64,000 bases of DNA, from assembly GCA_038062115.1 (NCBI GenBank), contig JBBTXS010000007.1, positions 5,448-69,447 on the forward strand, read 5' to 3'. The DNA is from Patescibacteria group bacterium. Lineage in GTDB: Bacteria; Patescibacteriota; Microgenomatia; Levybacterales; UBA12049. The notes beneath the pieces were generated by a model. It searched no databases. It had not been told where the DNA came from and saw only the letters and a list, made by a program, of their open reading frames with translations. The translations under genes were made by a program, and so were the position numbers. Positions 44,983 through 61,549 of the stretch are shown piece by piece; the first letter of the stretch is position 1; each line of letters opens with the position of its first letter.

Positions 44983-45056
44983 TGCCGAGTCGTCTAATGG
45001 TAGGACACGACCCTCTGGAGGTCGCTATTGGGGTTCGAATCCCTGCTCGGCAGCCA
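44983..45056 (+). tRNA. tRNA-Gln (anticodon CTG), CCA encoded
   Basis: Hand-folded cloverleaf: acceptor TGCCGAG/CTCGGCA, anticodon arm CGACC-CTCTGGA-GGTCG, T arm TGGGG-TTCGAAT-CCCTG, discriminator G, then CCA. Confidence 0.85.
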
Positions 45057-45084
45057 GTAAAGAGAGGAAAGCCGTTGAGAGGTA

Positions 45085-45116
45085 GCGCTTTCCGCGCCCA
45101 CCTCCGCGGAAAGCGC
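45085..45116 (+). terminator. 12-bp perfect GC-rich hairpin downstream of tRNA-Gln
   Basis: GCGCTTTCCGCG-cccacctc-CGCGGAAAGCGC with a T-run 10 nt later. Could be a terminator or part of the element-end homology. Confidence 0.4.
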
Positions 45117-45208
45117 GTCAAATCCGCCTTTTTTGAAACTTGCGGACAGCCGCCGGAAAAAGAAGGAAGAAAAAACGCAAAAATTTTAAATAACTTTCTA
45201 TTAACTCA

Positions 45209-45297
45209 AATGGCCGCTCTGGTTGTACTCAACTCGGATTGCTCCAAATTGTCCAAAGCGGCCATTAAAAAAGCAATCCGAACAAGTTGAGTACAAC
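45209..45297 (+). ncRNA. candidate structured RNA / nested inverted repeat
   Basis: 21-bp stem 45222-45242 / 45273-45297 with a 4-nt bulge. The 10-nt AATGGCCGCT (45209-45218) is complementary to AGCGGCCATT (45257-45266) in the apical loop. Confidence 0.35.
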
Positions 45298-45375
45298 TAC
45301 AATATACAAAATTGTTGAAACAAAAACAACACCAACACTTGCACAAATTTAGAAAAATTGATAAAATACAAGCAT

Positions 45376-45807
45376 ATGACGCAAGCTGATGAATTAACAA
45401 ATAAGTTTGTAGCTGTACTCAACAAGAAAATTCCTGTTGGCGTTTTAATGAATGCGTTGGGGCATATGTCAGCCGGTCTTTCAGCTATCTTTCCTAATTT
45501 GGCTGAAATGCGATTTGATTCTTACTTCGACCAAAATGGCGGCGAGCATAAAAGTATATCCGATCACCCATTTATTATCCTTTCCGCGGATAATTCAAAC
45601 CAAATTAGAGTACTCAGGAAAGAGCTAATTTCAACAAACATTCATTTTGTTGATTTTACAAACACAATGACTGTTGGAACATATGCGGAACAAAAAGAAA
45701 GAACAAAAAATACCCCTGAGGAACAACTGGAGTATTACGGTATTTGTATGTTTGGTAACATAGCAACACTTAACCAGCTCAATCGAAAATTTTCTCTTTG
45801 GAAATAA
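45376..45807 (+). CDS. DUF2000 domain protein
   Basis: KFVAVLNKKIPVGVLMNALGHMSAGL pattern. ATG at 45376 (the ORF track start 45358 is TTG). Confidence 0.6.
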   Translation: MTQADELTNKFVAVLNKKIPVGVLMNALGHMSAGLSAIFPNLAEMRFDSYFDQNGGEHKSISDHPFIILSADNSNQIRVLRKELISTNIHFVDFTNTMTVGTYAEQKERTKNTPEEQLEYYGICMFGNIATLNQLNRKFSLWK

Positions 45808-45810
45808 TTT

Positions 45811-46167
45811 ATGAAAAATATTGCAAAAGACATCTTTCGCCAAAGACTTCTGATGGAAGGGTATTATGAAATTCCTGTAGACGAGTCCGTAATAGAAAAA
45901 TATTTTATAGAAATTTGTAGCCATCTCAATTTAAGAATGTATGGAAAACCGATAATTTTTTCTCCTGGTGGCGAAGGGAAAAAAGAAAATCAAGGCTATG
46001 ATGCTTTTGTGCCACTCATTGATTCAGGAATTTCAGTTTATGTATGGACGAACAAAAAATTTGTTTCCATTATTCTTTACACCTGCAAAGGTTTTAACTC
46101 CGATGAGGCGATGGCATTTACGAAGAACTTTTTCAAAGTTAAAGAATTAGTTTCGGAAGAATTTTAA
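45811..46167 (+). CDS. S-adenosylmethionine decarboxylase-related protein
   Basis: 118 aa. PLIDSGISVYVWTNKKFVSIILYTCKGFN resembles the (E)SHxxxHTWPE...D.F.C core of SpeH-type proenzymes (by eye). Confidence 0.45.
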   Translation: MKNIAKDIFRQRLLMEGYYEIPVDESVIEKYFIEICSHLNLRMYGKPIIFSPGGEGKKENQGYDAFVPLIDSGISVYVWTNKKFVSIILYTCKGFNSDEAMAFTKNFFKVKELVSEEF

Positions 46168-46168
46168 T

Positions 46169-46405
46169 ATGAACAAATGGTTTGTAACATGGAATAGACC
46201 GAATTATTTCGAATGGGCAAAAGCTAATAAGAATGGGTATAGGTTATTAGTAATACATCCAGAGAGTGATGGAAGATATTTAGCTGTGGATGCTCAATTG
46301 GAGATGCTTCCGCAAGGGTTGCCAAAGTTTACTGTTACCGAGCAGAAATACATAGGTGATCTGAAATCTGCTAAACAACAGGTTGCTGAGTGGCAAAATA
46401 AATAA
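46169..46405 (+). CDS. hypothetical protein (78 aa)
   Basis: ORF track. Tightly packed behind 45811..46167. Confidence 0.4.
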   Translation: MNKWFVTWNRPNYFEWAKANKNGYRLLVIHPESDGRYLAVDAQLEMLPQGLPKFTVTEQKYIGDLKSAKQQVAEWQNK

Positions 46406-46575
46406 GCGATTGCGGAGCAATCGCAAAATCGCGCGCGCAAAAAATAGCGGAGGCGCGGCGGGTGGGGGCGCCGCGCCGGCCTGTCCGCCGAAGCCTCGGC
46501 GAAGGCGGGAGCAAGCGAGCCGAGCGGAGCGAGGCGACCTAACACATTGAGGTTCGACATTTTTTGTAAACCGCC
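46406..46575. repeat. GC-rich hairpin block ending in a W'-like element-end sequence
   Basis: GCGATTGCGGAGCAATCGC and GGCGCGGCG...CGCCGCGCC hairpins. GAGGTTCGACATTTTTTGTAAA (46549-46570) matches GAGGTTCGAATTTTTTCGTATA at 58933-58954. Confidence 0.5.
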
Positions 46576-46665
46576 AGCCAGTCTGGAAGGGTGTGTGAAG
46601 CTATATCACATCCGATGCGATGTGTGGTAATACTTATAAAAGATTAATGGTAAGATAAGTATGGG

Positions 46666-51158: not shown

Positions 51159-51283
51159 GGCAAGAGTTATATAGTAGCATAAATACTGCTTTTTAATACA
51201 AACACATTATAATGTTGTAAAGTAGAGCTATGCAAAGGGGAAAAGAGACAGATTATCGATCCGTAGAACCGCCAAAAGAGAAC

Positions 51284-52228
51284 ATGATGCTTGGGGGGAA
51301 AGTTGCATCTGTCTTTCCAGGACAAGGATCGCAATTTGTAGGTATGGGTTTTGAGTTGTATCAAAACTCAAGATCAGCAAGAGACGTATTTGACGAGGTG
51401 GATCAGGCTTTGAGATTTAAGCTCTCAAGACTGATTTTTGAAGGATCAGACAAGGATCTTACAGATACAATTAACTCTCAGCCGGCGATAACGGCTGTTA
51501 GCATAGCAAGCGTTAAAGCATTAGAAGAAACTTTAGGAAATAAAATACCACAATCTGAAGTGGTGGCTGGTCATAGCTTGGGATTCTATACATCTCTGGT
51601 TGTGGCAGGCGTTATACCTCTTAGCGATGGAGTGAGGTTAGTAAGAGAACGGGGTAGGTTGATGAAGGAGGAGTCAGCAAAACGGCCAGGAGGAATGGTT
51701 GCTATAATTGGACTCGATCAATTGACGTTGGAAGAAATATGCCAAGAGGTAGGGGCTGAGATTTCAAATATTAATTCTCTTAATCAGTTAATAATCAGTG
51801 GGGATAGAATTGCTCTTGCACGAGCAACGGATCTTGCGTCTGCCAGAGGAGCAAGAAAAGCTGTTTCTTTGGCTGTGAGCGGAGCTTTTCATTCTTCTCT
51901 AATGGGGGGAGCAAGAGACGAATTAGCTAGAATAATTAATGCGATGGAATTTAATGACCCAAAAATTCCAATAGTGGGGAATTCGAATGCAAAATTCTTA
52001 ACTACAGCACAGGAAGTTAAAGAAGAATTAATAGATGGATTGTGCAATTGTGTTCAATGGCATAAGTCGGTACTCAATATGGTTAACTTTGGTGTATCCC
52101 ACTTTATTGAATTTGGGCCGGGCAGGGTGCTTAGCGGTTTGATTAGGCAAATAGACGAAAGTGTTCAAGCTTTTAGTATTAATTCTCCAGGTTCTATTCA
52201 AAAGCTAGCAAACGCAATGGCGCCCTAA
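51284..52228 (+). CDS. fabD: malonyl-CoA:ACP transacylase
   Basis: VFPGQGSQFVGMG, GHSLGFYTS (GHSxG), SGAFHS. Start chosen at MMLGGK. Confidence 0.85.
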   Translation: MMLGGKVASVFPGQGSQFVGMGFELYQNSRSARDVFDEVDQALRFKLSRLIFEGSDKDLTDTINSQPAITAVSIASVKALEETLGNKIPQSEVVAGHSLGFYTSLVVAGVIPLSDGVRLVRERGRLMKEESAKRPGGMVAIIGLDQLTLEEICQEVGAEISNINSLNQLIISGDRIALARATDLASARGARKAVSLAVSGAFHSSLMGGARDELARIINAMEFNDPKIPIVGNSNAKFLTTAQEVKEELIDGLCNCVQWHKSVLNMVNFGVSHFIEFGPGRVLSGLIRQIDESVQAFSINSPGSIQKLANAMAP

Positions 52229-52261
52229 GAAGTAATTCCTGTTCTAATTAGTCGCTTATTT

Positions 52262-52366
52262 TAGTAGACCTATACGAAAAAATTCGAACCTCTTTCATAT
52301 TAAAAAGGTAGTCGCTCTCTTCGTTCGCTCCTTCTATTTTATATTGCTCGGCCTTCGGCCTCGCTC
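52262..52366 (+). repeat. island left junction (core TAGTAG) plus arm W
   Basis: tagtagACCTATACGAAAAAATTCGAACCTCTT...ATTTTATATTGCTCGGCCTTCGGCCTCGCTC. An inverted copy lies at 58866-58962; the first ~31 and last ~32 nt are identical and the middle has diverged. Confidence 0.8.
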
Positions 52367-52947
52367 TTTTGTATTTTTTGCGATTGGACCGACGACTATG
52401 TGCGCGATTTTTTTTGGAACTCCAAAATGGATTATATCAGGTTTTTCTTTAATCCGTTTCAACCCACCCACCCGATTATGGTGGCGGCGACCCCGCCTTT
52501 GGGCGCTAGGTCCCGCTTGGGCGGGACTCGCCAATGTTTTTACTTTTCTAAAATCCTATACAGTCTCTTCCCAACTCCAGACCAATTTAGTATCGTTGCG
52601 CCGTCGGCGGGGTACTTCCGCTTTTCGCCCCCGCCGCTGTTATTTTACCCCTTCCTGTTCATGAAGCATCGTCCCGCCCTTGGCGGGACTTGTGGTAGCT
52701 CGGTTGGCTCACCCGCCTGTTTTCTAAAACCATAGTATGATTTCGGCGGGTTCGCGTTGGTCGGGCTACCTATCCAAAACATATCTTACGTTAAAGTTTT
52801 TCTGACGGTAGCCCTCCCTTTAGCAAAGATTCCATGATGGGGCGGGGTCGGCGGACGCCGCCAAAACTAATCGGCCAGAATGGTGGAAATTGGCCGTCCG
52901 TCTTTAATATTTCCCATGAAAGTGCTAGAATTCAAAGTAAACAAGAT
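52367..52947. ncRNA. GC-rich, hairpin-dense non-coding block (candidate structured RNA)
   Basis: Repeated GTCCCGC(C)-YTTGG-GCGGGAC hairpins at ~52510-52528 and ~52671-52689. A 9-bp stem GGTAGCTCG/CGGGCTACC (52694-52702 / 52762-52770) encloses CCCGCC...GGCGGG. Only overlapping low-complexity ORFs on both strands. Confidence 0.35.
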
Positions 52948-53787
52948 ATGGGAAAAGTTATTTCAAAAATAGATGCCATAAAGTTGTCAGGTCTTGACGA
53001 TAAAACATTTGATAACTATTTTAAAAATGCAGGTGAATTTGCTTGTCTTCCAAGAGAGGGAAAGACACGATTTCTTTTTGACGAAGACAAATTAAAAAGA
53101 TGGAAGGAAGATTACGAATGGAGGACTGTAGAGCTTGATTTTCAAGATTATGCTCTTTGCTTGGACTTTGCGCTAGCACAGCATTTTCGAGGGTATGTTT
53201 TATCTGATTGGGGTACTGGCCGCCAAAGAGAGTTTGGGCAGAAAATAACAAACTGGATAAAGGGTCAGCTGGGCGAAGTTGCTGTTAAGAAGTTTTTTAA
53301 AAAAGAGTTTGGAGTTGAAATAGAACTTGATTTTGATATCTATTCAAAAATTGTTCCGCAGGATATTATTGGAGTCTTTGAAAATGGGAAAATGAGGAAA
53401 CCTAAAACAGGAGTTGGCATAAAATCATCAAAGCCAAAAAGCGCATTTCTAGTGTTGGGATCAAACGAAATAAAACTTCCTGAAAGGAGATCGGATATTT
53501 ATGTCTATTGCAGACCAGATATTCCAGACGACCATCTGCTTAGATTAACAAAAGATCTGATAGTAAAAGCAGTAAAAGATAAGCCCCATTTCTCAAGGTA
53601 TAAAGATCAGTTGCCTGATTTTACAAATATTCCTTGTGAAATAGTCGGGTGGTGTAGGCCAGCAGAGTTAGAAGAGGTTTCAGGAATACCTGGACAAGAA
53701 TTCGATAATGGAACAAGATTTGTCAAAAAGTCCGGTTTACTCCATCGAAACAAGGACGAATGGAAAAAGCTTATACGAATGCTGTAG
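52948..53787 (+). CDS. putative type II restriction endonuclease (partner of the adjacent C5 methyltransferase)
   Basis: Convergent with dcm, overlapping by 17 nt. ELDFDIY...PQDIIGV...GVGIKSSKPKS is PD-(D/E)XK-like by eye. The ORF track N-terminal 38 aa fall in the GC-rich block; the ATG is at 52948. Confidence 0.45.
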   Translation: MGKVISKIDAIKLSGLDDKTFDNYFKNAGEFACLPREGKTRFLFDEDKLKRWKEDYEWRTVELDFQDYALCLDFALAQHFRGYVLSDWGTGRQREFGQKITNWIKGQLGEVAVKKFFKKEFGVEIELDFDIYSKIVPQDIIGVFENGKMRKPKTGVGIKSSKPKSAFLVLGSNEIKLPERRSDIYVYCRPDIPDDHLLRLTKDLIVKAVKDKPHFSRYKDQLPDFTNIPCEIVGWCRPAELEEVSGIPGQEFDNGTRFVKKSGLLHRNKDEWKKLIRML

Positions 53788-54916
53788 CTTGAGGAAAGTT
53801 AAATATCTCAATTTGCCTAATTTGGCGGTTTAATACGTTTCCATTTGTGAGTTTTGCAGGAATCCATTCGTATTTAACTCCGGCAAATGTTTTTAGCACG
53901 GCTTCAACTATACCTTTAGCGGCTTTAGGAGATACAGCCATTCCTATTTGTTTCCTAACACTTTCTTTTGATCCCTCAAAAACAAAAGTGTCAGGGAAAG
54001 TCTGTATCCTAGCTCTTTCTCTATTTGTTAATGCTCTGTTTTCTTTCCAATGGTAGCCATGAGTGCCGCCCCCGCCGCTGCCAGTTAATGTATAGGACGG
54101 TTTGTCTGGATGAAGCCTTTTATATATCTGGCTCATTCTAGCTCCTTTGACATTTAGTCTTAAATGTTCAGGCAATCCTTCGAACCAGACATTCTCACCG
54201 GGCGGGATATACTTTAGTCTTTCAACAACCATTTTACCTTGAGCCGTAATTTCATTATTCGAAGCGTCTTGCGGAATAGGAGGATTGTCTATAGCTTCTC
54301 TTGCAGAAACATATCTGCCAGCAGTTGTAGGAATTGGTACTTTAAACTCTAATCCAAGATCTTTTCTAATTCCTATAATTACAACTCTATGGCGGGCTTG
54401 CGGAACCCCGTACTCTTCAAATTTATATAGGTGGGGAGTTAGCCTATATCCTTTACCGGCATTTTCTAAATCTTTAAGAATTTTATTAAAAGCTCCGCCG
54501 CTGTTGGCGCTTTGCAGACCGCTTACATTTTCGGCAATGAACCATTTTGGATTGTGAATATTTATTGCTTTTACGCCGTAAGTATAAAGAGGACCGTATT
54601 TTCCGTTAAAGCCTTTTTGTTCTCCCACTATGCTGAAATCATTGCATGGAAATCCAAAAGCCAAAACATCAAAGGATGGCACTTTTTTGAAATCAATTGT
54701 TTCTACAGGAGCGCAGACGACATTTTTTAAATTTCCTCCGTGAATATTTCTTGCGTAAGTTCTGCAGGTGTCTTCATCGATATCATTAGCCCAGACAGGC
54801 ATCATTTTGTATAAATTGTTGTTAGAGTCTTTTACAGCGGCAAGCATTGCTCCCAGAGATAGTCCCCCTGGTCCGCAAAATAACTCGGCAAGTTTAAATA
54901 TCTTTGTATTTTTCAT
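53771..54916 (-). CDS. dcm: DNA (cytosine-5)-methyltransferase
   Basis: Motif I FCGPGG, motif IV GFPCNDFS, motif VI AENV, motif VIII QARHRV, C-terminal RIQTFPD. Confidence 0.9.
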   Translation of the reverse strand: MKNTKIFKLAELFCGPGGLSLGAMLAAVKDSNNNLYKMMPVWANDIDEDTCRTYARNIHGGNLKNVVCAPVETIDFKKVPSFDVLAFGFPCNDFSIVGEQKGFNGKYGPLYTYGVKAINIHNPKWFIAENVSGLQSANSGGAFNKILKDLENAGKGYRLTPHLYKFEEYGVPQARHRVVIIGIRKDLGLEFKVPIPTTAGRYVSAREAIDNPPIPQDASNNEITAQGKMVVERLKYIPPGENVWFEGLPEHLRLNVKGARMSQIYKRLHPDKPSYTLTGSGGGGTHGYHWKENRALTNRERARIQTFPDTFVFEGSKESVRKQIGMAVSPKAAKGIVEAVLKTFAGVKYEWIPAKLTNGNVLNRQIRQIEIFNFPQATAFV

Positions 54917-55310
54917 AGGCAGTTCTTAATATAAGATAACATCGTTTTGCATTATTTGCTATTTCATGCTCCCAAAATCTTAATACTTTAATATTTCCAT
55001 TTTTTAGTTCTAGATTTATCTTTTTGTCTCTGCTGACATTATTTTTAATTTTTCTGTCCCAATAATCATTTTGCGATTTAGGTCTGATAAAATCAATGGG
55101 ACATTTGTGCCAGAAACAGCCGTCAATAAATACAGCTAATTTTTGTTTCGGAAAATAAATATCCGGTTTTCCTGTAATTTTTGATTTTATCCTATATCCT
55201 TTTAACCCTTTTTTCCATATAAATTTTCTAAATTTTAGCTCAACTAGAGTGTTTGAGCTTTTTATCCGAGACATATTATATTTTCTCTGCTTCGGCGTAT
55301 GGGTATCCAT
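54894..55310 (-). CDS. vsr: very short patch repair endonuclease
   Basis: 138 aa. MSRIKSSNT, GKPDIYFPKQKLAVFIDGCFWH, LRFWEHE motifs. Overlaps dcm by 23 nt. Confidence 0.85.
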   Translation of the reverse strand: MDTHTPKQRKYNMSRIKSSNTLVELKFRKFIWKKGLKGYRIKSKITGKPDIYFPKQKLAVFIDGCFWHKCPIDFIRPKSQNDYWDRKIKNNVSRDKKINLELKNGNIKVLRFWEHEIANNAKRCYLILRTAYEKYKDI

Positions 55311-55342
55311 GCCGAAATTATAGACAAAAAGCTTATTAAAAA

Positions 55343-55966
55343 CTAGTTCTTTCTTAGCAAATCTATAAATTTACCCTGTATTACGAATTGTTTTCCAATT
55401 TTGGGTTGATAAGCTGGATCATCACTTTCTGGTAAAAGCATAACGTAATCCTGTAGTCGTTTAAATCTTTTTAGCGTTGCTGTTTCGTCATCTGGGTCAA
55501 AAGCGACTACGATATCTCCATTGTTAGCACTATTTTGCGATGCGATTATAGCTAAATCGCCTGGATTTATTCCCGCTTTTAGCATACTTGTTCCTTTGAC
55601 TCGAAGTATGAAGACATCTCTTTGGCCTTTTGCTAAGAGTAGGGGAATCTTTTTATAACCTTCAATACTCTGTTCAGCTAAAGAACCATATCCAGCCCTT
55701 ATCTCGCCAAGAATAGGAACATTAATCATAGTTTCTTTATTAATCTTTGTGGGCTTACGTAGTATTTTAATTGCCCGGCGAGAATTTTTTTCACGCTGAA
55801 TATAGCCTAGTCTCTGCAGTTTATCTAATTGCAAAACAATTCCGCGCGTGGACTTATTCCCAATGATGGTCTTGAGCTCTGTTATTGAAGGGGAATAGCC
55901 ATTTTTATTTTGGAATTGAATAATAGTTTGTAAAACTTTTTCTGTTTTTGAAAGTAAATACTGCAT
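55343..55966 (-). CDS. lexA: LexA-like repressor (wHTH + S24 autopeptidase)
   Basis: LexA DNA-binding domain NGYSPSITELKTIIGNKSTRGIVLQLDKLQRLGYI. Cleavage-site-like GEIRAGYG, catalytic VKGTSML and TLKRF. Confidence 0.8.
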   Translation of the reverse strand: MQYLLSKTEKVLQTIIQFQNKNGYSPSITELKTIIGNKSTRGIVLQLDKLQRLGYIQREKNSRRAIKILRKPTKINKETMINVPILGEIRAGYGSLAEQSIEGYKKIPLLLAKGQRDVFILRVKGTSMLKAGINPGDLAIIASQNSANNGDIVVAFDPDDETATLKRFKRLQDYVMLLPESDDPAYQPKIGKQFVIQGKFIDLLRKN

Positions 55967-56055
55967 AATAAGTGGTTATTATTTACCACCTTGCAAATAG
56001 TACCACTATCTGTAATAATATGTCAATAAGCAAAATAAAGGCAGGTGAATAAAAG

Positions 56056-56322
56056 ATGGTTTACGCAATAACATATGATTTAAACAAGCCTGGACAGAAT
56101 TATCCTAGTTTATATAGTACCATAAAAAGACTAGGCCACTGGATATGGCCACTACAAAATCTTTGGTTCATAGATTCAGAGAATGGAGCACAAGAAATAG
56201 CAAATGAAATACATACAGTTATTGATCAAAATGATTCTGTTTTTGTAGTAAGAGTTTATCGTGGTCAATGGGGTTCGTGGATGTCAAGTGAAACAAATCA
56301 ATGGATTAATGCAAGGACATGA
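56056..56322 (+). CDS. small alpha/beta hypothetical protein (88 aa), divergent from the lexA-like gene
   Basis: MVYAITYDLNKPGQNY...LQNLWFIDSENGAQEIANEIHTVIDQNDSVFVVRV. The beta-alpha-beta-alpha-beta pattern is reminiscent of ferredoxin-like/Cas2-like small proteins (weak). Confidence 0.4.
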   Translation: MVYAITYDLNKPGQNYPSLYSTIKRLGHWIWPLQNLWFIDSENGAQEIANEIHTVIDQNDSVFVVRVYRGQWGSWMSSETNQWINART

Positions 56323-56568
56323 GGATGTAAATAAATAATGGGATTGTCACAATATTAAATAACAAAACAAGGAAGTTTCCGTCAAGTCAAGCGAGAGGGA
56401 TGAGCTTACCAGCAACTTAGCAAAAGATTGTCCTGAATTTAATAAAGTTAGATCTAGTACAAAGTTAGAAGCTTTAAGAAAAAGATTCGATGTTGCTTCT
56501 ATAAACAATGTTAGAGAGGAATTGAGAAGGTTGGATGAATAGAATTTTTCTCTTGGCGGTTTCTTTCA

Positions 56569-56592
56569 TTTTAATTTGACTTCCTATCCACA
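56569..56592 (+). repeat. 24-nt direct repeat DR1 upstream of the RT gene
   Basis: TTTTAATTTGACTTCCTATCCACA versus DR2 TTTTAATCTGACTTCCTAGTCACA (21/24). Contains TTGACT followed 17 nt later by TATTTT, a possible promoter. Confidence 0.6.
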
Positions 56593-56616
56593 GAAGAGTA
56601 TTTTATCAACTAGTTT

Positions 56617-58014
56617 ATGGATAATTTCAATGAGTTCAGAAAATACTTTAATAAAACCTTTTGGAAAGTTTTTAGTAATAAAAATATTTTTATAGATAAC
56701 CCATCTAATAAAGAAAAGTTTACAAAAAGTGTTTTTAAGGAAATCTATTTTAAAAAATATTACCCTTCCATCCCTCAACTATATATAGATATTAATAAAG
56801 GCAACGGTGTAACAAGAATAATTCCAGTTTTTTCACTTAAGGACTATTGTGTTTATTATTATTGTATAAAAAAATTAGAAACGAAAATTGCATTTAATAG
56901 AATTCCAAATACTTTTGGAGGATGGACATTAGGCGGTTTAATCAGAAAAAACGAAGAAGACGAAATGATAAAAAGAAGAATGGATTACAATAAATTTGAA
57001 GATTTTATGGCTGAGCTAAACGGTATTTCCGTTAGTCAACATTCATTTAATCCTTTAGCGTGGGCTAAGGCATACGGCGATTTGAACTCTAAACTATACG
57101 CCTCTTCTAAAGAAAAAAAATATAATTTTGTTGCTGAGCTGGATATATCAAACTTTTATGATTCTATTCGTTTAGATATTTTAGAGCTTAAGATAAGAGA
57201 GATTTCTGATGATAAATATTCAGAGATTATTGCTATACTTTTCCTATTTTTAAATTATTGGAATCGAAAAACTAATTCATACAATAAACAAACAGTGGGA
57301 ATACCGCAAGATGCTCTTGGAGATTGTTCTCGAATTTTGGCAAATTTTTATTTGCAGTCTTACGACAAATTCGTTTATGAAATTTGCAAAAAAACGGGAT
57401 GTAAATACTTAAGATATGCAGATGACCAATTTATTTTTTCTAATAGCCAAGAAGAATTAAAATATCTGATATATATGATGTCTAAAAAATTAAATAGTAT
57501 GGGCCTTTCTGTGAATCAAAAGAAAGTCAGAATTTTTCCCACGGCAGGGTTAATAGAATATCGTGCTTTTAAAATATTCGATATTGTGAAGTCTAGCAAA
57601 GATAAGAATGATAAGGTAAAAGTTGAAACGCTTGTCAATAAGTATATTGAGCTAGTCAAGGAGAACAAGTTGGCAAAGATTAAGGATAATGGAAAATCTA
57701 TTTTAACCAGAATTTTATTTTGTCCTGCTCTTAAGAGAATTGATGTGAGCAAAAGAAATACTATTGTCAATTTCTTAATAGACGAAAACTACTTAGAGTT
57801 TTGCAGAACTAACCATTTGCTAAAAATATATGATTTACTAGAAAAAAATCAAAAAGGAAAATTTGTTCTTAAATTGAAAAAACTTACTAAAAAATTAATG
57901 CACAACTCTTTTCATTATGAGGTTTTAGGCTTTTTTGATAAATATAGCATTCATACTAAGCTTATAAAGACAAGATTGAAAAAATTAGAACAAGATCTCA
58001 ATCTTTTAATCTGA
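56617..58014 (+). CDS. stand-alone reverse transcriptase (Abi/UG-like, not group II or retron by visible features)
   Basis: RT motifs GVTRIIPVFSLKDY (1/2), ELDISNFYDSI (A), GIPQDALGDCSRILANFYL (B), LRYADDQFIF (C, YADD), GLSVNQKKVRIF (D/E). A ~150-aa helical C-terminal extension. No maturase or endonuclease domain. Confidence 0.85.
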   Translation: MDNFNEFRKYFNKTFWKVFSNKNIFIDNPSNKEKFTKSVFKEIYFKKYYPSIPQLYIDINKGNGVTRIIPVFSLKDYCVYYYCIKKLETKIAFNRIPNTFGGWTLGGLIRKNEEDEMIKRRMDYNKFEDFMAELNGISVSQHSFNPLAWAKAYGDLNSKLYASSKEKKYNFVAELDISNFYDSIRLDILELKIREISDDKYSEIIAILFLFLNYWNRKTNSYNKQTVGIPQDALGDCSRILANFYLQSYDKFVYEICKKTGCKYLRYADDQFIFSNSQEELKYLIYMMSKKLNSMGLSVNQKKVRIFPTAGLIEYRAFKIFDIVKSSKDKNDKVKVETLVNKYIELVKENKLAKIKDNGKSILTRILFCPALKRIDVSKRNTIVNFLIDENYLEFCRTNHLLKIYDLLEKNQKGKFVLKLKKLTKKLMHNSFHYEVLGFFDKYSIHTKLIKTRLKKLEQDLNLLI

Positions 58015-58027
58015 CTTCCTAGTCACA
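58004..58027 (+). repeat. 24-nt direct repeat DR2 overlapping the RT stop, upstream of the nuclease gene
   Basis: TTTTAATCTGACTTCCTAGTCACA. TATAAT at 58043-58048 lies 8 nt before the nuclease ATG. Confidence 0.6.
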
Positions 58028-58056
58028 AAATTTTCTTAGTGGTATAATCATTATTA

Positions 58057-58734
58057 ATGTCACAACTATACAAATTGAGTCCCTCGGATTTTGCCTATTT
58101 GTGGGAAGATTGTAAGCATTGTTATTACCAGAAAGTAAAATTTGGCATTACCTATTCTAGTCCGTTTCCTGCGATGTTTGGTAGGATTAATAAATTGCTT
58201 CAGACTTCAATCATGGGAATGAATCTTCAAGATGTTCATCCCGATCTTCCGAGCGGAATCATTACGGTTCAGGAAGGATTTATGAAATCAAAACAAATTC
58301 CGGGGACAAACACTTATCTAAGCGGAAGGTTTGATATTTTGACAAAACTAGACGATGGGACACACGCTATTATTGATTTCAAAATTACCAGCCCTGATGA
58401 AGAAAAAATCCTCAAAAAGTATTCGAGTCAACTGCACGCTTATAAATTCGCATTGGAAAATCCACTGGAAGGAGAACCGATTAAAATTTCAAAAATGGGG
58501 GCTGTAAGCATAAATCCTGATGAGATGAAGTTAGTTAATGGAAAAGTAGTTTTTACAGCTACGCCTACATGGTATCCGATTGAGGAAAATATGGATAATT
58601 TCTACAATCTTATTCACGAAATTTCGACAGTTCTAAGCGGGCCGTTACCTCCAACAGCTGATACTTGTAATTTATGTATTTACAGAAAATCTTTTGAACC
58701 AAAAGCTAAAATTGTAGACGATATTCCTTTTTAA
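58057..58734 (+). CDS. Cas4/RecB-like PD-(D/E)XK nuclease with four Cys
   Basis: GRFDIL...HAIIDFKIT (D...DxK), QLHAYKFAL (QxxxY), CKHC near the N-terminus and CNLC near the C-terminus (possible Fe-S or Zn site). Confidence 0.7.
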   Translation: MSQLYKLSPSDFAYLWEDCKHCYYQKVKFGITYSSPFPAMFGRINKLLQTSIMGMNLQDVHPDLPSGIITVQEGFMKSKQIPGTNTYLSGRFDILTKLDDGTHAIIDFKITSPDEEKILKKYSSQLHAYKFALENPLEGEPIKISKMGAVSINPDEMKLVNGKVVFTATPTWYPIEENMDNFYNLIHEISTVLSGPLPPTADTCNLCIYRKSFEPKAKIVDDIPF

Positions 58735-58865
58735 TCCGCTATTGATATAGAAAATCTCAGTTGAAATCTTCTTTGGAACTGCTATATTAAAATCGTAGAG
58801 TGGACATTTGAATTTTGGAAAAATTTTTGCGTTTTTTACCTTGCGGGAACGAGCCGACAGTTTTT

Positions 58866-58962
58866 GAGCGAGGCCGAAGGCCGAGCAATATAAAATAGTA
58901 GGAGCGGAAGCGACTACCGCTTTAGAATAAAAGAGGTTCGAATTTTTTCGTATAGGTCTACT
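58866..58962 (-). repeat. inverted copy of arm W plus core (hybrid junction B)
   Basis: The reverse complement reads CAGTAGACCTATACGAAAAAATTCGAACCTCTT...ATTTTATATTGCTCGGCCTTCGGCCTCGCTC. Continuous with the X arm at 58958-59056. Confidence 0.8.
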
Positions 58963-59056
58963 GAAACAGATTTCTCTGAAGCCAGAGCTGGGGAGGTCGG
59001 GGCAGAAGGGCGGGAATGGAGCTCCGCAAAGCCCAATTTGAAAGAAACGGAAAGCT
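58958..59056 (-). repeat. left copy of a 99-bp perfect inverted repeat (arm X)
   Basis: Exact reverse complement of 60515-60613 by manual comparison. Imperfect homology extends about 20 nt further (59057-59073 vs 60494-60514). Confidence 0.85.
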
Positions 59057-59106
59057 ACCGGTAAAAAGAAGTGAAAAAACGCAAAAATTAAGGAACAAGA
59101 ACTACT

Positions 59107-60723
59107 ATGAAATATATAGCATATTGCAGGAAATCAACGGACGAGAAAAACAAACAAGTTCTCTCGATTGACCAGCAAATAGCAGAATTAAAAGAATTTG
59201 CTACCAGAGAACATTTAGAAGTAGTTGATTTTGTAACAGAAGCAAAAACTGCAAAAGTTCCGGGGAGAGAAAAATTCGCGCAGGTTTTAAAAAGAATAGA
59301 AAAAGGAGAAGCTCAGGGAGTTGTCTCATGGCATCCGGACCGTCTGGCAAGAAATTCTATCGACGGCGGAAAAGTTATTTATCTTTTAGATACCGGAAAA
59401 CTTTTGGACTTAAAATTTCCGTCTTTCTGGTTTGAAAGTACTCCTCAAGGAAAATTCATGTTGTCAATCGCATTTGGACAATCCAAGTATTACGTTGATA
59501 ATCTTTCCGAGAATGTTAAAAGAGGCATGAAACACAAGCTACGTGTCGGTTTATGGCCGTTAAAAGCTCCTTTAGGATACATAAATGATTCGAACACAAA
59601 AACAATTCAAATACATCTGGAAACCTCTCGGATTATAAAGAAAGCATTCCAGCTTTTTGCAGAAGGTAATAAATCCTTCAGAGAGATATCTCTTTTTCTT
59701 AGTAAATTCAAAATTGATCGAGGATGGAAAGGTAAAGACGATAGGCCATTTCGTATAACACGAATTAAGAACATGTTTACAAACAGATTTTACATCGGAA
59801 TTATGAAGTACAACGGTGAATACTATCAGGGATCGTATAAATTATTCATTACGAAGAAATTATTTGACGAAGTTCAAAAGCAAGTAGACCGAATAGAGAG
59901 ACCAAGATATAGAGGGCATAATTTTGCATTTAGCGGATTTGCGCGTTGCGGAGAATGCAAAGCTTCTATTACATCAGAACAACACTTAAAGAAATATAAA
60001 AATGGAACTTCCCAGACGTTTATGTATTACCGCTGTACAAAAAAATTAAAACCCTGTACTCAAAAATATGTTACGGAGGATAAATTAGAAAATCAGATAA
60101 GGGAAATGCTGGAAAAAGTATCGTTTCCGCAAGAATGGGCTGCTGATTGGTATAGTTGGTTAGACAGAGACGAAAAAGAAGAATTAACTGTAGCCGAGGA
60201 TAATATTGGAAAGTTAAGGGTTGAAGTGGAAAAAGTAGACAAAAGACTGAATTTTCTTTTGGATAGTTTTCTTGATCAAGTTATTGATTCCGAGATTTAC
60301 AAGAAAAAGAAGAACGAATTATTCGAAGAAAAATTAAAAATAACTGAGGAAATTGAAAAAATAAAAGAGAGTGGCTCAAGTTGGCTCGAACCTATGAGAG
60401 AGTTCGTAGATAGGGCTCTGCAGAGCCAAAAAATCGCACGTGCAAAAAATACAAAAGAAGATTTGGCAATCTTCGCAAAAACTGTCGGCTCGAACTTCTT
60501 TTTAACCGATCGGCAGCTTTCCGTTTCTTTCAAATTGGGCTTTGCGGAGCTCCATTCCCGCCCTTCTGCCCCGACCTCCCCAGCTCTGGCTTCAGAGAAA
60601 TCTGTTTCAGTAGCCCCAAGGGGAGTCGAACTCCTGCCTGCGGCAAGCGAAGGACCGATCTTCACCTTAACCTGCCCGCCGCTTGTGCCCCCAAGGGGAT
60701 TCGAACCCCTGTTACAAGGTTGA
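59107..60723 (+). CDS. large serine recombinase
   Basis: Resolvase catalytic start YCRKSTDEKNKQVLSIDQQ...VSWHPDRLARN, recombinase domain, zinc ribbon CGECK...YYRCTKK, coiled coil. The last ~70 codons read through arm X, a pseudo-tRNA and into antisense tRNA-Glu, so the true C-terminus is uncertain. Confidence 0.85.
   Translation: MKYIAYCRKSTDEKNKQVLSIDQQIAELKEFATREHLEVVDFVTEAKTAKVPGREKFAQVLKRIEKGEAQGVVSWHPDRLARNSIDGGKVIYLLDTGKLLDLKFPSFWFESTPQGKFMLSIAFGQSKYYVDNLSENVKRGMKHKLRVGLWPLKAPLGYINDSNTKTIQIHLETSRIIKKAFQLFAEGNKSFREISLFLSKFKIDRGWKGKDDRPFRITRIKNMFTNRFYIGIMKYNGEYYQGSYKLFITKKLFDEVQKQVDRIERPRYRGHNFAFSGFARCGECKASITSEQHLKKYKNGTSQTFMYYRCTKKLKPCTQKYVTEDKLENQIREMLEKVSFPQEWAADWYSWLDRDEKEELTVAEDNIGKLRVEVEKVDKRLNFLLDSFLDQVIDSEIYKKKKNELFEEKLKITEEIEKIKESGSSWLEPMREFVDRALQSQKIARAKNTKEDLAIFAKTVGSNFFLTDRQLSVSFKLGFAELHSRPSAPTSPALASEKSVSVAPRGVELLPAASEGPIFTLTCPPLVPPRGFEPLLQG
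60515..60613 (+). repeat. right copy of the 99-bp perfect inverted repeat (arm X + core AGTAG), inside the recombinase 3' end
   Basis: AGCTTTCCGTTTCTTTCAAATTGGGCTTTGCGGAGCTCC...CAGAGAAATCTGTTTCAGTAG. Confidence 0.85.
60614..60645 (-). other. degenerate tRNA-Glu-like 3' fragment (T arm + acceptor)
   Basis: The minus strand GCAGGCAGGAGTTCGACTCCCCTTGGGGCTA resembles the tRNA-Glu 3' end GTAACAGGGGTTCGAATCCCCTTGGGGGCA. No matching 5' acceptor strand. Confidence 0.45.
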
Positions 60724-60757
60724 GAACCTTGCGTCCTAACCGCTAGACGATAGGGGC
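60686..60757 (-). tRNA. tRNA-Glu (anticodon CTC), no encoded CCA
   Basis: Hand-folded: GCCCCTA/TGGGGGC acceptor, CAAGG-TTCTCAA-CCTTG anticodon arm, AGGGG-TTCGAAT-CCCCT T arm. 72 nt. Confidence 0.85.
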
Positions 60758-60822: not shown

Positions 60823-61254
60823 CTATTTTTTATTGGGCAATTGGTCTAAGAAGTCTCTCGCTTTTACAATTTTGATTTCTTGATATTCTCCAAGCGACAA
60901 AAGATGTTTTTTGTCTCCTGTTACGATATAAGAGGCTGAACCTTCGATTGCGCAAGCAATAATCTTGTTATCATCAGGATCGTCTTTTATTACATCAACC
61001 TCAAGTGTTCCAGCAGTAACAAATGCTTTTGTAGAAAGAGCATCAATAACCCCATTAATCTCACTAGAGGTAAGAGAAAACTGCTTTTTAATTTCAGGCC
61101 GTTCTAATACATCCTTTACCTCTTGAATTATTGGAGGAGAAGTTACAAGTATATACTCGCCATTTTTCCATGCTTCGAGAAGTTGATAGGGGGTTGTGGT
61201 TACAGTGCCCGCTCCTGAAATAATGAGGTTAGTATCAACTACGGCCCTGTACAC
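60823..61254 (-). CDS. PIN-domain toxin
   Basis: AVVDTNLIISG...LLEAWKNGEYILVTSPPIIQEVKDVLERP...IVTGDKKHLL. Confidence 0.8.
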   Translation of the reverse strand: MYRAVVDTNLIISGAGTVTTTPYQLLEAWKNGEYILVTSPPIIQEVKDVLERPEIKKQFSLTSSEINGVIDALSTKAFVTAGTLEVDVIKDDPDDNKIIACAIEGSASYIVTGDKKHLLSLGEYQEIKIVKARDFLDQLPNKK

Positions 61255-61549
61255 GTTTTCCTCTCCTTACTTTTTCGACTGCATCACCCACCACTTTCTC
61301 GATTTGTCTGGGAGGGATACTTTTGGTTTTTGCTCTTATCTTGTCAAATACCACAAATCCTTTTTTCCATTCCCCATCAGTAAATCGGAGACGTGGATTC
61401 ATTAGGCGATCGTATTCCTTATAATCTATAATTACCGCCTGCGGTTTATTAAATCGAGTGATCACCACATTAGTTCTACCATATATTGCGGTGTTTAAAA
61501 TTTCGGCAAATTTGTTTCTTACATCTTGTGCGGCGACCTTTATTGTCAT
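61235..61549 (-). CDS. Phd/YefM-like antitoxin
   Basis: MTIKVAAQDVRNKFAEILNTAIYGRTNVVITRFNKPQAVIIDYKEYDRL. Overlaps the PIN gene by 20 nt. Start chosen at MTIKV. Confidence 0.65.
   Translation of the reverse strand: MTIKVAAQDVRNKFAEILNTAIYGRTNVVITRFNKPQAVIIDYKEYDRLMNPRLRFTDGEWKKGFVVFDKIRAKTKSIPPRQIEKVVGDAVEKVRRGKRVQGRS

What the first reader, a model, noticed from the sequence alone, without database searches (positions are those of the whole stretch)
52262..60613. 8.4-kb integrative island between fabD and tRNA-Glu with attL/attR-like junctions plus an internal, inverted attP-like hybrid junction
Three junctions share the core (T/C)AGTAG.
- **A (52262-52267):** host side Z (fabD trailer ...GTCGCTTATTT) joins arm W (ACCTATACGAAAAAATTCGAACC...).
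- **C (60609-60613):** arm X (...GAGAAATCTGTTTC) joins Y (CCCCAAGGGGAGTCGAACTCC..., a tRNA-Glu-like 3' fragment 46 nt from the real tRNA-Glu).
- **B (58958-62, read on the minus strand):** this is X|core|W, exactly the hybrid expected for attP if A=attL and C=attR of an element whose attB was Z|Y.

The serine recombinase gene reads into X|Y. Both W and Y start with T-arm-like TTCGA(A/C) sequences. This is consistent with targeting of tRNA 3' ends.

An attP-type junction retained inside the integrated element, in inverted orientation, is not the textbook picture. It implies nested or tandem integration followed by inversion, or an additional recombination site.
Basis: partly seen in the sequence, partly recalled or inferred. 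Interest (0 to 1): 0.75.

Follow-up and report, generated by a model that had tools for sequence, protein, structure and literature searches.

The report
tRNA-targeting recombinase island with spare attP
The 8.35-kb segment is a real mobile defence island, inserted by a large serine recombinase at the end of a tRNA-Glu gene, and its odd internal inverted copy of the attachment site is the standard, apparently undescribed design of a large family of such elements in ultra-small (CPR) bacteria.

Summary
Junctions A (52263-67), B (58958-62, inverted) and C (60609-13) share the core AGTAG. They also share two abutting inverted-repeat pairs of about 100 nt: W (52259-52366 / 58866-58966) and X (58955-59060 / 60511-60616).

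A and C are true insertion boundaries. A related contig (L100) has the fabD trailer joined directly to the tRNA-Glu 3' end.

The internal site B is not a one-off nested integration. Of 159 related recombinase loci from Microgenomates genomes and metagenomes, 127 have the X repeats around the recombinase gene. 61 also show the abutting W pair upstream, and none shows it downstream. A tRNA 3' end sits at the recombinase 3' end in 102 loci.

W mimics the tRNA T-arm, with its TCGAA motif 4-5 bp further from the core. This matches the known attP-versus-attB half-site geometry.

Rare variants show that the sites can recombine:
- L144 has the cargo inverted.
- L086 has the W half of B replaced by a second tRNA.
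- A recombinase-less derivative lies at tRNA-Gln in this same window.

B lies in the recombinase leader, downstream of a conserved pseudoknot RNA. What B does is unresolved. I favour a retained recombinase-binding control site that is also a second recombination site.

The parts
51230..52228 (+). fabD (malonyl-CoA:ACP transacylase), left host flank
   Evidence: Pfam Acyl_transf_1, E 3.8e-35. Lon-FabD synteny is kept in the empty-site contig L100.
52229..52262 (+). Z: fabD trailer, the host half of attL
   Evidence: Homologous trailer in L100 runs straight into tRNA-Glu.
52263..52267 (+). Core AGTAG at junction A (attL)
   Evidence: Close relatives L020 and L101 define the shared core as GTAG.
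52268..52366 (+). W arm, A copy (P'-type half-site plus about 75 nt)
   Evidence: Inverted repeat with 58866-58957. TCGAA starts 16 nt from the core.
52365..52381 (+). F: 17-nt exact inverted copy of recombinase codons 60442-60458
   Evidence: The same relation holds in 33 of 37 family loci against 0 of 37 for the control region.
52440..52860 (+). 'E': conserved GC-rich non-coding region, candidate structured RNA of about 430 nt
   Evidence: Conserved in 7 other elements, with tblastx hits in shifting frames. RNAalifold gives 64 pairs, 21 with compensatory changes. No Rfam hit.
52834..53787 (+). Cargo: type II restriction endonuclease-like protein
   Evidence: PADLOC REase_II, E 1.8e-19.
53771..54916 (-). 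Cargo: C5 cytosine DNA methyltransferase
   Evidence: Pfam DNA_methylase, E 5e-71.
54894..55310 (-). Cargo: Vsr mismatch endonuclease
   Evidence: Pfam Vsr, E 8e-24.
55343..55966 (-). Cargo: LexA-like repressor / S24 peptidase
   Evidence: Pfam Peptidase_S24 and LexA_DNA_bind.
56056..56322 (+). Cargo: 88-aa protein, weakly Cas2-like
   Evidence: Pfam and PADLOC Cas2, E about 1e-3, below cut-off.
56617..58014 (+). Cargo: defence-type reverse transcriptase (UG13b class)
   Evidence: PADLOC RT_UG13b, E 2.6e-130; Pfam RVT_1.
58057..58734 (+). Cargo: PD-(D/E)XK, Cas4-like nuclease
   Evidence: Pfam PDDEXK_1, E 4.6e-8; PADLOC Cas4.
58761..58788 (+). Promoter-like site (TTGAAA-16-TGCTATATT) pointing through B to the recombinase gene
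   Evidence: Same place and -10 type as the conserved TTTGTATAKT that heads the P RNA in relatives.
58822..58842 (+). V: inverted repeat of V' (59069-59089). Together they bracket B.
   Evidence: (I15). V is present left of W' in 32 of 37 loci and never on the A side.
58850..58866 (+). s: 17-nt exact inverted copy of recombinase codons 60476-60492
   Evidence: Holds in 30 of 37 family loci against 0 of 37 for the control region.
58866..58957 (-). W arm, B copy (W')
58958..58962 (-). Core at junction B (CTACT on the + strand)
58963..59060 (-). X arm, B copy (X')
   Evidence: 99-106 nt, 98-100% inverted repeat of 60511-60608.
59069..59089 (+). V': motif GAAAAAACGCAAAAATT about 20 nt upstream of the recombinase ATG
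59107..60723 (+). Large serine recombinase gene (538 aa). The last 33 codons before the core are encoded by X. The tail after the core is encoded by Y and the antisense of tRNA-Glu.
   Evidence: Pfam Resolvase, Recombinase and Zn_ribbon_recom. The N-terminus MKYIAYCRKST carries the catalytic Ser. Homologues are typically 505-517 aa and cover about 94% of the query.
60511..60608 (+). X arm, C copy
60609..60613 (+). Core AGTAG at junction C (attR)
60614..60684 (-). Y: decayed tRNA-Glu copy whose 3' T-arm and acceptor end form the B'-type half-site
   Evidence: 91% identity to the tRNA-Glu 3' end over 23 nt. Shares the anticodon-arm string gatcttcacctt with the L100 tRNA-Glu. Not called by ARAGORN.
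60685..60757 (-). Intact tRNA-Glu(CTC)
   Evidence: ARAGORN and Rfam.
45051..46578 (-). Second, recombinase-less element of the same family at the tRNA-Gln 3' end. Layout: CAGC core, X', V', P RNA (45171-45313, minus strand), cargo (DUF2000, AdoMet decarboxylase-like, 78 aa), W', CAGC core.
   Evidence: Cargo annotation.

Best explanation
**What it is.** The segment 52263-60613 is an integrated mobile element. It moves by a large serine recombinase (LSR) and carries defence genes as cargo:
- a type II restriction-modification set with Vsr;
- a LexA-like regulator;
- a UG13b reverse transcriptase with a Cas4-like nuclease.

**How it integrated (inferred from the anatomy).** A circular form carried attP = X|GTAG|W. 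It recombined with attB = fabD trailer|GTAG|tRNA-Glu 3' end. This gave attL (A) and attR (C).
- The recombinase recognises the universal T-loop sequence of the tRNA as its B-type half-site.
- W carries the same TCGAAC motif 4-5 bp further out, as a P-type half-site.
- X restores the sequence just 3' of the tRNA.

**What B is (shown).** B is a complete second copy of attP in inverted orientation. It sits between a conserved promoter and leader RNA and the recombinase start codon. It is a fixed part of the family design.

**What B does (my inference).** B is a permanently intact, high-affinity recombinase-binding site in the recombinase's own leader.
- It would work as an operator or control site, in the way the Tn3 res site lies upstream of its resolvase gene.
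- It remains recombination-competent.
- Only the inverted orientation is evolutionarily stable. Direct repeats of the 100-nt arms would delete the recombinase or the cargo.
- Occasional recombination at B gives cargo inversion, recombinase inversion, or exchange with a second tRNA.
For: **Boundaries**
- The empty site in L100 joins the homologous fabD trailer directly to tRNA-Glu.

**Recombinase**
- Resolvase, Recombinase and Zn_ribbon_recom domains, with the catalytic Ser motif.

**Family design**
- X repeats flank the recombinase gene in 64 of 80 genome loci and 63 of 79 metagenome loci.
- An abutting W pair lies upstream in 38 and 23 of them, and downstream in none.
- A convergent tRNA sits exactly at the X end in 55 and 47 loci, covering at least ten tRNA species.
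- Cargo is unrelated between elements and no cargo gene is shared by all.

**Half-site geometry**
- TCGAA starts 12 nt from the core in the tRNA half in most of 26 loci.
- It starts 16-17 nt from the core in W in most of those loci.
- This matches the 4-5 bp attP/attB shift reported for LSRs (PMC11722253).

**B lies in the leader**
- The P promoter and pseudoknot RNA lie on the recombinase-sense strand, 250-450 nt upstream of the ATG, in about 65 loci.
- Covariation test on the pseudoknot: 91% of cells paired against 74% in shuffles, 0 of 500 shuffles as high.
- The V/V' repeat brackets B in 32 of 37 loci.

**B can recombine**
- L086: the W' half is replaced by a second tRNA-Glu.
- L144: the cargo arc is inverted.
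- The window's tRNA-Gln element has a P-V-X joint. Its simplest derivation is inversion of the recombinase arc followed by a deletion.
- L003: Z is joined to the B-version of W in a 98.9%-identical strain.
Against: - No excised circle, empty-site variant or alternative orientation was found for this island itself in any assembly.
- No circle-type junction was found in 159 related loci.
- If B were an equivalent attP, integration through it should sometimes put the recombinase 5' end next to the tRNA. This was seen 0 times.
- An operator needs only about 50 bp, yet both arms are kept at about 100 nt and about 98% identity. Mismatches are spread evenly along the arms rather than depleted near the core.
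- The operator idea does not explain the extra co-varying repeats F/F' and s/s'.
- No recombination directionality factor candidate is conserved, so how excision happens is unknown.
- A few relatives (L107, L056) lack B.
- Binding and repression are untested.
Confidence: 0.6

Rival explanations
1. Programmed inversion switch. A, B and C are crossover sites of a double invertible system, in the manner of Hin/Gin or multiple-inversion systems. Flipping the cargo arc (A x B) uncouples the P promoter from the recombinase gene. Flipping the recombinase arc (B x C) places the gene behind the tRNA promoter and changes its C-terminal tail from Y-encoded to W-encoded.
For: - Each arc is flanked by inverted repeats that contain the core, as in invertible segments whose recombinase lies inside.
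- L144 is a cargo-flipped state.
- The window's tRNA-Gln element implies a past flip of the recombinase arc.
- L003 joins Z to the B-version of W.
- Many contigs break at the repeats.
Against: - Orientation is almost invariant in assemblies. V/P lies on the B side in 32 of 37 loci and on the A side in 0 of 37.
- Only 1 of about 65 P-bearing loci has the cargo flipped.
- 0 of 159 loci have the recombinase flipped.
- LSRs are not known to recombine attP with attL or attR.
- Homologous recombination between 100-nt repeats could produce the rare flips.
Confidence: 0.17
2. Two-attP life cycle. The excised circle carries two inverted attP sites separating a recombinase arc and a cargo arc, a layout like the yeast 2-micron plasmid. 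B is used for an alternative integration or transposition route, such as moving to a second tRNA, cassette exchange, or movement without a directionality factor.
For: - B is a complete P/P' site with both arms.
- L086 is the product expected from B recombining with a second tRNA attB.
- No conserved directionality factor is present in the cargo.
- In the circle, the F'/F repeats would bracket attP1 just as V/V' bracket B.
Against: - No circle was seen.
- Integration through B was never seen (0 of 159 loci).
- Recombination of B with a tRNA inside a chromosome gives inversions or deletions that should usually be harmful, and only one such product was found.
Confidence: 0.12
3. Single-strand fold. 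The nested co-evolving repeats (W/W', X'/X, F/F', s/s', V/V') exist to fold a single-stranded form of the element. This could be the recombinase mRNA with its 5' leader paired to its own 3' end. It could also be ssDNA taken up by competence, in which W:W' and X':X stacked on the continuous W'-core-X' strand rebuild a duplex attP.
For: - F/F' and s/s' co-vary between subfamilies although F' and s' are coding.
- The arms are GC-rich (50-60%) in loci of about 40% GC.
- Arm identity is uniform along their length.
- B lies inside a transcribed leader.
Against: - Arm mismatches show no G.U bias on either strand: 28 vs 22 for X and 23 vs 23 for W.
- Serine recombinases need duplex sites and cut both strands.
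- Fold-back stems would give hairpin-capped products.
- Cargo genes lie on both strands, so one transcript spanning A to C is unlikely.
Confidence: 0.07
4. One-off accident or neutral relic. B arose from a nested or tandem integration plus inversion, or from an ancient duplication that persists only through gene conversion.
For: - Gene conversion between 100-nt inverted repeats could keep them alike.
- Mismatches are uniform along the arms.
- A few relatives lack B.
Against: - The same layout, arm lengths, orientation and flanking motifs recur in more than 60 elements with 50-84% identical recombinases. They sit at different tRNAs in different CPR classes.
- A neutral duplication would be lost or vary in size and position.
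Confidence: 0.04

Closest known systems
Large serine recombinase (serine integrase) elements: phiC31, Bxb1, A118/LI, SPbeta prophages; Tn4451/Tn5397 (TnpX/TndX); SCCmec (Ccr)
   Same: - Same three-domain recombinase architecture.
- attL and attR hybrids of attP and attB around a short core.
- The recombinase gene lies next to attP.
- The P-type versus B-type half-site offset is 4-5 bp.
   Different: - The target is the 3' end of many different tRNA genes, read through the T-loop. To my knowledge tRNA targets are typical of tyrosine integrases, not serine integrases.
- attP has about 100-nt arms.
- A second complete attP is kept inverted upstream of the gene.
- No directionality factor is apparent.
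- Sequence is remote from solved LSRs. The only PDB hit is the 3g13 catalytic domain, E 6e-8.
Serine invertase systems (Hin, Gin, Cin, Pin; Min multiple inversion)
   Same: The recombinase gene lies inside a segment flanked by inverted crossover sites. Adjacent segments share a middle site.
   Different: - The recombinase here is a large, not a small, serine recombinase.
- The repeats are 100 nt rather than 26 bp.
- Orientation is essentially fixed in about 160 assemblies.
- The outer sites are also element-host junctions.
Tn3/gamma-delta res site
   Same: A serine-recombinase crossover site placed upstream of the recombinase gene, where bound recombinase also represses transcription (my knowledge of Tn3). 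This is the model for my reading of B.
   Different: - res acts in resolution between direct repeats and has three subsites.
- B is an inverted duplicate of an integration site.
- Repression at B is untested.
Yeast 2-micron plasmid (FLP/FRT inverted repeats)
   Same: The predicted circle would have two inverted recombination sites that divide it into two unique arcs, one of which encodes the recombinase.
   Different: - FLP is a tyrosine recombinase.
- The 2-micron plasmid replicates and uses inversion for copy-number amplification.
- No replication genes and no circle were seen here.
Tycheposons of Prochlorococcus (10.1101/2020.12.28.424599)
   Same: Small cargo-carrying integrative elements at tRNA genes that build defence and adaptation islands. 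A minority encode LSRs.
   Different: - 910 of 937 use tyrosine recombinases.
- They are flanked by partial tRNA direct repeats.
- A term search of that preprint found 'attP' nowhere and 'inverted repeat' only in its reference list.
Folded single-strand recombination sites (integron attC, CTX phage attP)
   Same: Inverted repeats that can rebuild a duplex recombination site from one strand. Compare the W:W' and X':X geometry here.
   Different: Those systems use tyrosine recombinases, exchange one strand, and have short spacers. Here the spacers are 1.5-9 kb and the enzyme is a serine recombinase.

Membership tests
Large serine recombinase (serine integrase) | N-terminal resolvase-type catalytic domain with nucleophilic serine | tested here: met
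   PF00239, E 7e-21, residues 4-148. N-terminus MKYIAYCRKST read directly from the sequence.
Large serine recombinase (serine integrase) | Recombinase domain (DBD1) followed by a zinc-ribbon domain (DBD2) | tested here: met
   PF07508 at residues 172-261 and PF13408 at residues 275-335.
Large serine recombinase (serine integrase) | Coiled-coil inserted in the zinc-ribbon domain | tested here: inconclusive
   Only a weak SMC/JetC-like match at residues 355-460. No structure was predicted.
Large serine recombinase (serine integrase) | attB half-sites carry the DBD2 motif 4-5 bp closer to the centre than attP half-sites | tested here: met
   TCGAA is at +12 in the tRNA half (Y) and at +16/17 in W, in most of 26 loci and in the window. 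The rule is taken from PMC11722253. The X half is less clear.
Large serine recombinase (serine integrase) | Unidirectional attP x attB reaction, reversed by a directionality factor | not testable with these tools
   No cargo gene is shared by all elements. Biochemistry is needed.
tRNA-targeting integrative island | Inserted at a tRNA gene, with a core repeat at both ends | tested here: met
   AGTAG at 52263-67 and 60609-13. C abuts a tRNA-Glu 3' end copy. In relatives, a tRNA sits at the recombinase 3' end in 102 loci.
tRNA-targeting integrative island | An unoccupied site exists in relatives | tested here: met
   L100 has Lon-FabD-trailer|tRNA-Glu-GT2 with no island.
tRNA-targeting integrative island | Excised circular form or attP junction detectable | tested here: not met
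   No circle-type context (recombinase 3' end followed by X, core, W) in 159 loci, and no variant contigs for this island. Raw reads were not available.
Serine invertase / invertible segment | Inverted crossover sites flank the segment | tested here: met
   W/W' flank the cargo and X'/X flank the recombinase gene.
Serine invertase / invertible segment | Both orientations occur in populations | tested here: not met
   0 of 159 loci have the recombinase flipped. 1 of about 65 has the cargo flipped, L144. Within-sample read data were not tested.
Serine invertase / invertible segment | Small serine recombinase with a C-terminal HTH, dependent on an enhancer and Fis | tested here: not met
   The protein is a 538-aa LSR.
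Recombination site acting as operator (Tn3 res-like) | Site lies between the promoter and the recombinase gene | tested here: inconclusive
   A promoter-like site at 58761-58788 and the conserved P promoter/RNA lie upstream of B on the sense strand. The transcription start was not measured.
Recombination site acting as operator (Tn3 res-like) | Recombinase binding represses its own transcription | not testable with these tools
   Needs EMSA and reporter assays.

The most novel reading that the evidence does not exclude
The element family may use a new kind of attachment-site logic. Five nested inverted-repeat pairs co-evolve: W/W', X'/X, F/F', s/s' and V/V'. Together they would let a single-stranded copy of the integrated element rebuild a complete duplex attP (X|core|W on the continuous W'-core'-X' strand). 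That single strand could be ssDNA imported by the competence system of CPR bacteria, or a long RNA. A serine-recombinase element could then move or regulate itself without classical excision and without a directionality factor. The two conserved RNAs (P and E) would be part of that machinery.
Probability: 0.07. Interest if true: 0.9.

Novelty: new variant of a known kind. Interest (0 to 1): 0.72.

Why it matters
**Mobile DNA in CPR bacteria.** Mobile elements of CPR/Patescibacteria are poorly known. This defines an abundant family:
- thousands of recombinase homologues;
- about 160 loci examined here;
- single genes to 9-kb defence and resistance-like cargo delivered to the 3' ends of many different tRNA genes.

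**Serine integrase biology and tools.**
- Reading the universal T-loop explains how one recombinase family can use many tRNA targets. This is directly testable.
- It offers a natural set of attP/attB pairs with clear P-type and B-type half-sites.
- The conserved internal attP, with no visible directionality factor, bears on an open question: how such elements control direction and expression.

**New RNAs.** Two candidate structured RNAs, the P pseudoknot and the roughly 430-nt E region, travel with the elements.

Tried and rejected
- **Exact-protein look-ups** of FabD, PIN, the PD-(D/E)XK nuclease, the REase and the recombinase. Every long contig has the same arrangement. Short Logan contigs simply break inside the repeats. 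No empty, circular or flipped variant of this island was found.
- **L003.** Z is joined to the B-version of W. This is suggestive of inversion or gene conversion, but the contig ends inside W and cannot decide.
- **FabD homologue P0126.** No DNA was available.
- **Viral contigs.** No relative of the recombinase, so there is no phage link.
- **Rfam.** Nothing for the arms, P or E.
- **RNA-pairing selection on the arms.** No G.U bias on either strand.
- **Site-wise selection on the core-proximal 25 nt.** Mismatch rate is flat at about 2% along the arms.
- **A conserved cargo gene as a directionality factor.** None found.
- **Circle-type long inverted repeats** (W'-core-X' against X-core-W around the recombinase gene). 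None found.
- **V' as the recombinase promoter.** I first read it this way. I dropped that once the P promoter upstream was seen, and because V/V' form a 25-nt inverted repeat on the same transcript.
- **Literature.** Seven searches found no description of this architecture.
- **PDB sequence search.** Only a remote catalytic-domain hit.

Full report
**1.

- A: fabD trailer (Z) | TAGTAG | ACCTATACGAAAAAATTCGAACC (W).
- B, on the minus strand: ...GAGAAATCTGTTTC (X) | AGTAG | W.
- C: X | AGTAG | CCCCAAGGGGAGTCGAACTCC (Y).

The shared sequences are not short motifs. They are two inverted-repeat pairs that abut at B.

- X: 58955-59060 vs 60511-60616, 106 nt, 98% complementary.
- W: 52259-52366 vs 58866-58966, about 108 nt, 87-90% with a 7-nt indel.

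The layout is therefore Z-core-W-[6.5-kb cargo]-W'-core'-X'-[recombinase gene]-X-core-Y.

The window matches Hainich groundwater metagenome contigs. The recombinase's closest genome-collection relative is a Candidatus Daviesbacteria MAG. The same arrangement is found in independent assemblies from several wells.

**2. Gene content**

The 538-aa ORF at 59107-60723 has Resolvase, Recombinase and Zn_ribbon_recom domains. Its N-terminus is MKYIAYCRKST. It is a large serine recombinase (LSR).

- Its last 33 codons before the core are encoded by X.
- It then runs through Y into the antisense of tRNA-Glu.
- Homologues are mostly 505-517 aa and cover about 94% of the query, so the true protein probably ends near the core.

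The cargo is a defence set:

- a restriction endonuclease-like protein, a Dcm methylase and Vsr;
- a LexA/S24-like protein;
- a weakly Cas2-like 88-aa protein;
- a UG13b-class reverse transcriptase and a Cas4-like PD-(D/E)XK nuclease.

**3. A and C are insertion boundaries**

L100 is a contig from a related organism whose FabD is 70% identical. It keeps Lon-FabD and then reads gtaattcctattctaattactcgctcattatTGGCAG|ccccaaggggattcgaacccctg... This is the homologous trailer running directly into tRNA-Glu(CTC), followed by the same glycosyltransferase that lies right of the island here.

- In the window, Y is a decayed copy of that tRNA-Glu. It keeps the T-arm, the acceptor end and part of the anticodon arm.
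- An intact tRNA-Glu(CTC) lies immediately next to Y.
- The closest relatives of the recombinase (L020 at 84%, L101 at 81%) sit at intact tRNA-Glu genes with the core GTAG.

**4. The internal attP is the family norm**

I fetched 80 genome loci and 79 metagenome loci that encode relatives of the recombinase (49-84% identity). They come from Daviesbacteria, Levybacteria, Woesebacteria, Gottesmanbacteria, Shapirobacteria, Collierbacteria, Beckwithbacteria and others.

| Feature | Genome loci (80) | Metagenome loci (79) |
|---|---|---|
| Inverted repeats, mostly 80-130 nt, flanking the recombinase gene | 64 | 63 |
| Second repeat pair abutting the left arm, other arm 0.6-9 kb upstream | 38 | 23 |
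| Second repeat pair downstream | 0 | 0 |
| tRNA gene on the opposite strand with its 3' end at the right arm | 55 | 47 |

- The tRNAs include Glu, Lys, Leu, Val, Arg, Gln, Trp, Tyr, Asp, Gly, Met, Ile and Ala.
- The core (GTGA, GTGC, GCTG or GTAG) covers the last two acceptor-stem bases, the discriminator and the next base.
- Z differs in every locus, as expected of host DNA.
- Cargo is unrelated between elements: MFS and EamA transporters, Erm-like and other methyltransferases, GNAT acetyltransferases, peptidases, restriction-modification genes and others. No gene is shared by all.

B is therefore a designed-in site. It is not the scar of a nested integration.

**5. Half-site logic**

Measured from the end of the core, TCGAA starts at +12 in the tRNA half (the T-loop) in most of 26 loci. 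It starts at +16 or +17 in W in most of those loci. The window shows the same offsets.

LSR attB half-sites carry the DBD2 motif 4-5 bp closer to the centre than attP half-sites (PMC11722253). On that rule:

- Y behaves as a B-type half-site;
- W behaves as a P-type half-site that mimics the T-arm;
- A is attL, C is attR, and B is a full attP.

The X half is less clear.

**6. What surrounds B**

A conserved element of about 145 nt, which I call P, lies just left of W' in about 65 loci. It is on the recombinase-sense strand in all but the inverted cases noted below: L144, the window's tRNA-Gln element and a partial hit in L162.

- P begins with an extended -10-like TTTGTATAKT.
- It then forms an H-type pseudoknot.
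- On 44 sequences, 91.3% of cells pair against 74.1% in shuffles (0 of 500 as high).
- 20 of 30 pairs show double changes. Slid controls give 33-46%.
- A conserved U.G pair fixes the strand.

P ends in GTTCTTTAAAATTTTTGCGTTTTTC (V). V is an inverted repeat of V', which lies 20-30 nt before the recombinase ATG. V is on the B side in 32 of 37 loci and never on the A side.

The recombinase is therefore probably transcribed through B. This is an inference.

The island studied here keeps the promoter-like site (58761-58788) and V, but has lost the pseudoknot.

Two further short repeats co-vary with the recombinase's own 3' coding sequence.

- F is the first 12-25 nt inside the A-side W arm. It matches in 33 of 37 loci.
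- s is the last 12-17 nt before W'. It matches in 30 of 37 loci.
- The control region matches in 0 of 37 loci.

In a circle, F'/F would bracket the 3' attP just as V/V' bracket B. I cannot explain these repeats.

**7. Do the sites recombine?**

Orientation is almost fixed, but there are informative exceptions.

- **L086.** The recombinase gene lies between two convergent tRNA-Glu genes. The W' half of B is replaced by a tRNA. This is the expected product of B recombining with a second attB, and homologous recombination cannot explain it.
- **L144.** The cargo arc is inverted, with P and V now at the A side.
- **The tRNA-Gln element in the window.** A 1.5-kb recombinase-less element of a sister subfamily (core GCTG) follows tRNA-Gln at 45051-46578. 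Its order, read in the recombinase-sense frame (the reverse complement of the window), is Z-core-W-cargo-P-V-X-core-tRNA. Its P-V-X joint is most simply derived by inversion of the recombinase arc followed by deletion between the then-direct V copies.
- **L027.** It has another relic in which the recombinase was deleted between the X arms.
- **L003.** In a 98.9%-identical strain, Z is joined to the B-version of W. This fits inversion or gene conversion.

Arm mismatches average about 2% and are flat along the arms. They show no G.U bias. This points to homogenisation rather than site-wise or RNA-level selection.

**8. Interpretation**

- **Secure:** this is an LSR integrative element at tRNA-Glu, and a member of a large CPR family with a tripartite att layout.
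- **Inferred:** integration occurred by X|W x trailer|tRNA recombination, with T-loop recognition.
- **Unresolved:** the purpose of B.

I favour a retained, intact recombinase-binding site in the recombinase leader. It would act as an operator or control site in the manner of Tn3 res. It is still able to recombine, and only the inverted orientation survives because direct 100-nt repeats would delete the recombinase or the cargo.

The rivals are:

- a programmed inversion switch;
- a two-attP life cycle;
- a single-strand fold;
- a neutral relic.

The long, uniformly identical arms and the F/s repeats are not explained by my favoured model.

**9. Novelty**

Seven full-text searches found no description of this architecture.

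- Tycheposons are the nearest ecological analogue, but they are mostly tyrosine-recombinase elements.
- No Rfam family matches P or E.
- The recombinase is remote from solved LSRs.

I rate this a new variant of a known kind.

Noticed in passing
window 45051-46578 (next to tRNA-Gln 44983-45056): A second, recombinase-less element of a sister subfamily (core GCTG/CAGC). Layout: tRNA-Gln, core, X', V', P RNA (minus strand), three cargo genes (DUF2000, AdoMet decarboxylase-like, 78 aa), W', core. Its X' and P are 88-95% identical to elements in other CPR lineages (L093, L097, L098). This suggests recent horizontal spread and possible mobilisation in trans.
   Followed up: partly
window 45171-45313 (minus strand); about 65 related loci, e.g. 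L097:1374-1515: 'P': a conserved element of about 145 nt with an extended -10-like start and an H-type pseudoknot. Covariation support is strong: 91% of cells paired against 74% in shuffles, 20 of 30 pairs with double changes, and a conserved U.G pair. It lies just upstream of the internal attP of these elements. No Rfam match. It could be a leader or a small RNA of unknown function.
   Followed up: partly
window 52440-52860: 'E': a GC-rich non-coding region of about 430 nt just inside the attL-side arm. It is conserved in at least 7 other elements (L087, L091, L064, L060, L071, L041, L033). RNAalifold predicts 64 pairs, 21 with compensatory changes, including a long-range closing helix. No Rfam match. 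It is a candidate large structured RNA, present mainly in the larger elements.
   Followed up: partly
window 52365-52381 / 60442-60458 and 58850-58866 / 60476-60492: Two 17-nt exact inverted repeats link the inner flanks of both W arms to conserved codons near the recombinase 3' end. The same relation, with different sequences, holds in 30-33 of 37 family loci against 0 of 37 for a control region. This is co-variation between coding and non-coding DNA that lies kilobases apart in the integrated form but about 250 nt apart in a circle. Unexplained.
   Followed up: partly
window 60614-60757 and 60823-61597: The tRNA-Glu hit by the island has decayed. Its 5' half is lost and it carries a 20-nt insertion. 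An intact tRNA-Glu(CTC) with a different anticodon stem, plus a PIN/PhdYeFM toxin-antitoxin pair, lies beside it. Both are absent from the empty-site contig L100. This may be a separate small insertion that replaced the tRNA.
   Followed up: no
L086:9796-11582: A recombinase gene sits between two convergent tRNA-Glu genes, with attR-type junctions on both sides. This is the predicted product of the internal attP recombining with a second tRNA. The partner cargo module was not located.
   Followed up: partly
L144:1-1530: The only locus found with the cargo arc inverted. The P RNA and V motif lie at the attL side, and the attL-type inner flank lies next to the internal attP.
   Followed up: partly
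one search hit list (P0003-P0011 and others): Proteins of about 870-930 aa that match the recombinase at 45-54% identity over most of its length, with very high bit scores. They may be fused or duplicated recombinases. Not examined.
   Followed up: no
window 51230-52228: This FabD has no close CPR relatives. The best is 70% identical, and most hits at about 60-65% lie on Mb-scale contigs. The gene may have been acquired horizontally in this Daviesbacteria-like lineage.
   Followed up: no
L090:1-1162: A 448-nt perfect inverted duplication of the recombinase 5' region at a contig end. It is either a fold-back assembly artefact or a real head-to-head structure.
   Followed up: no
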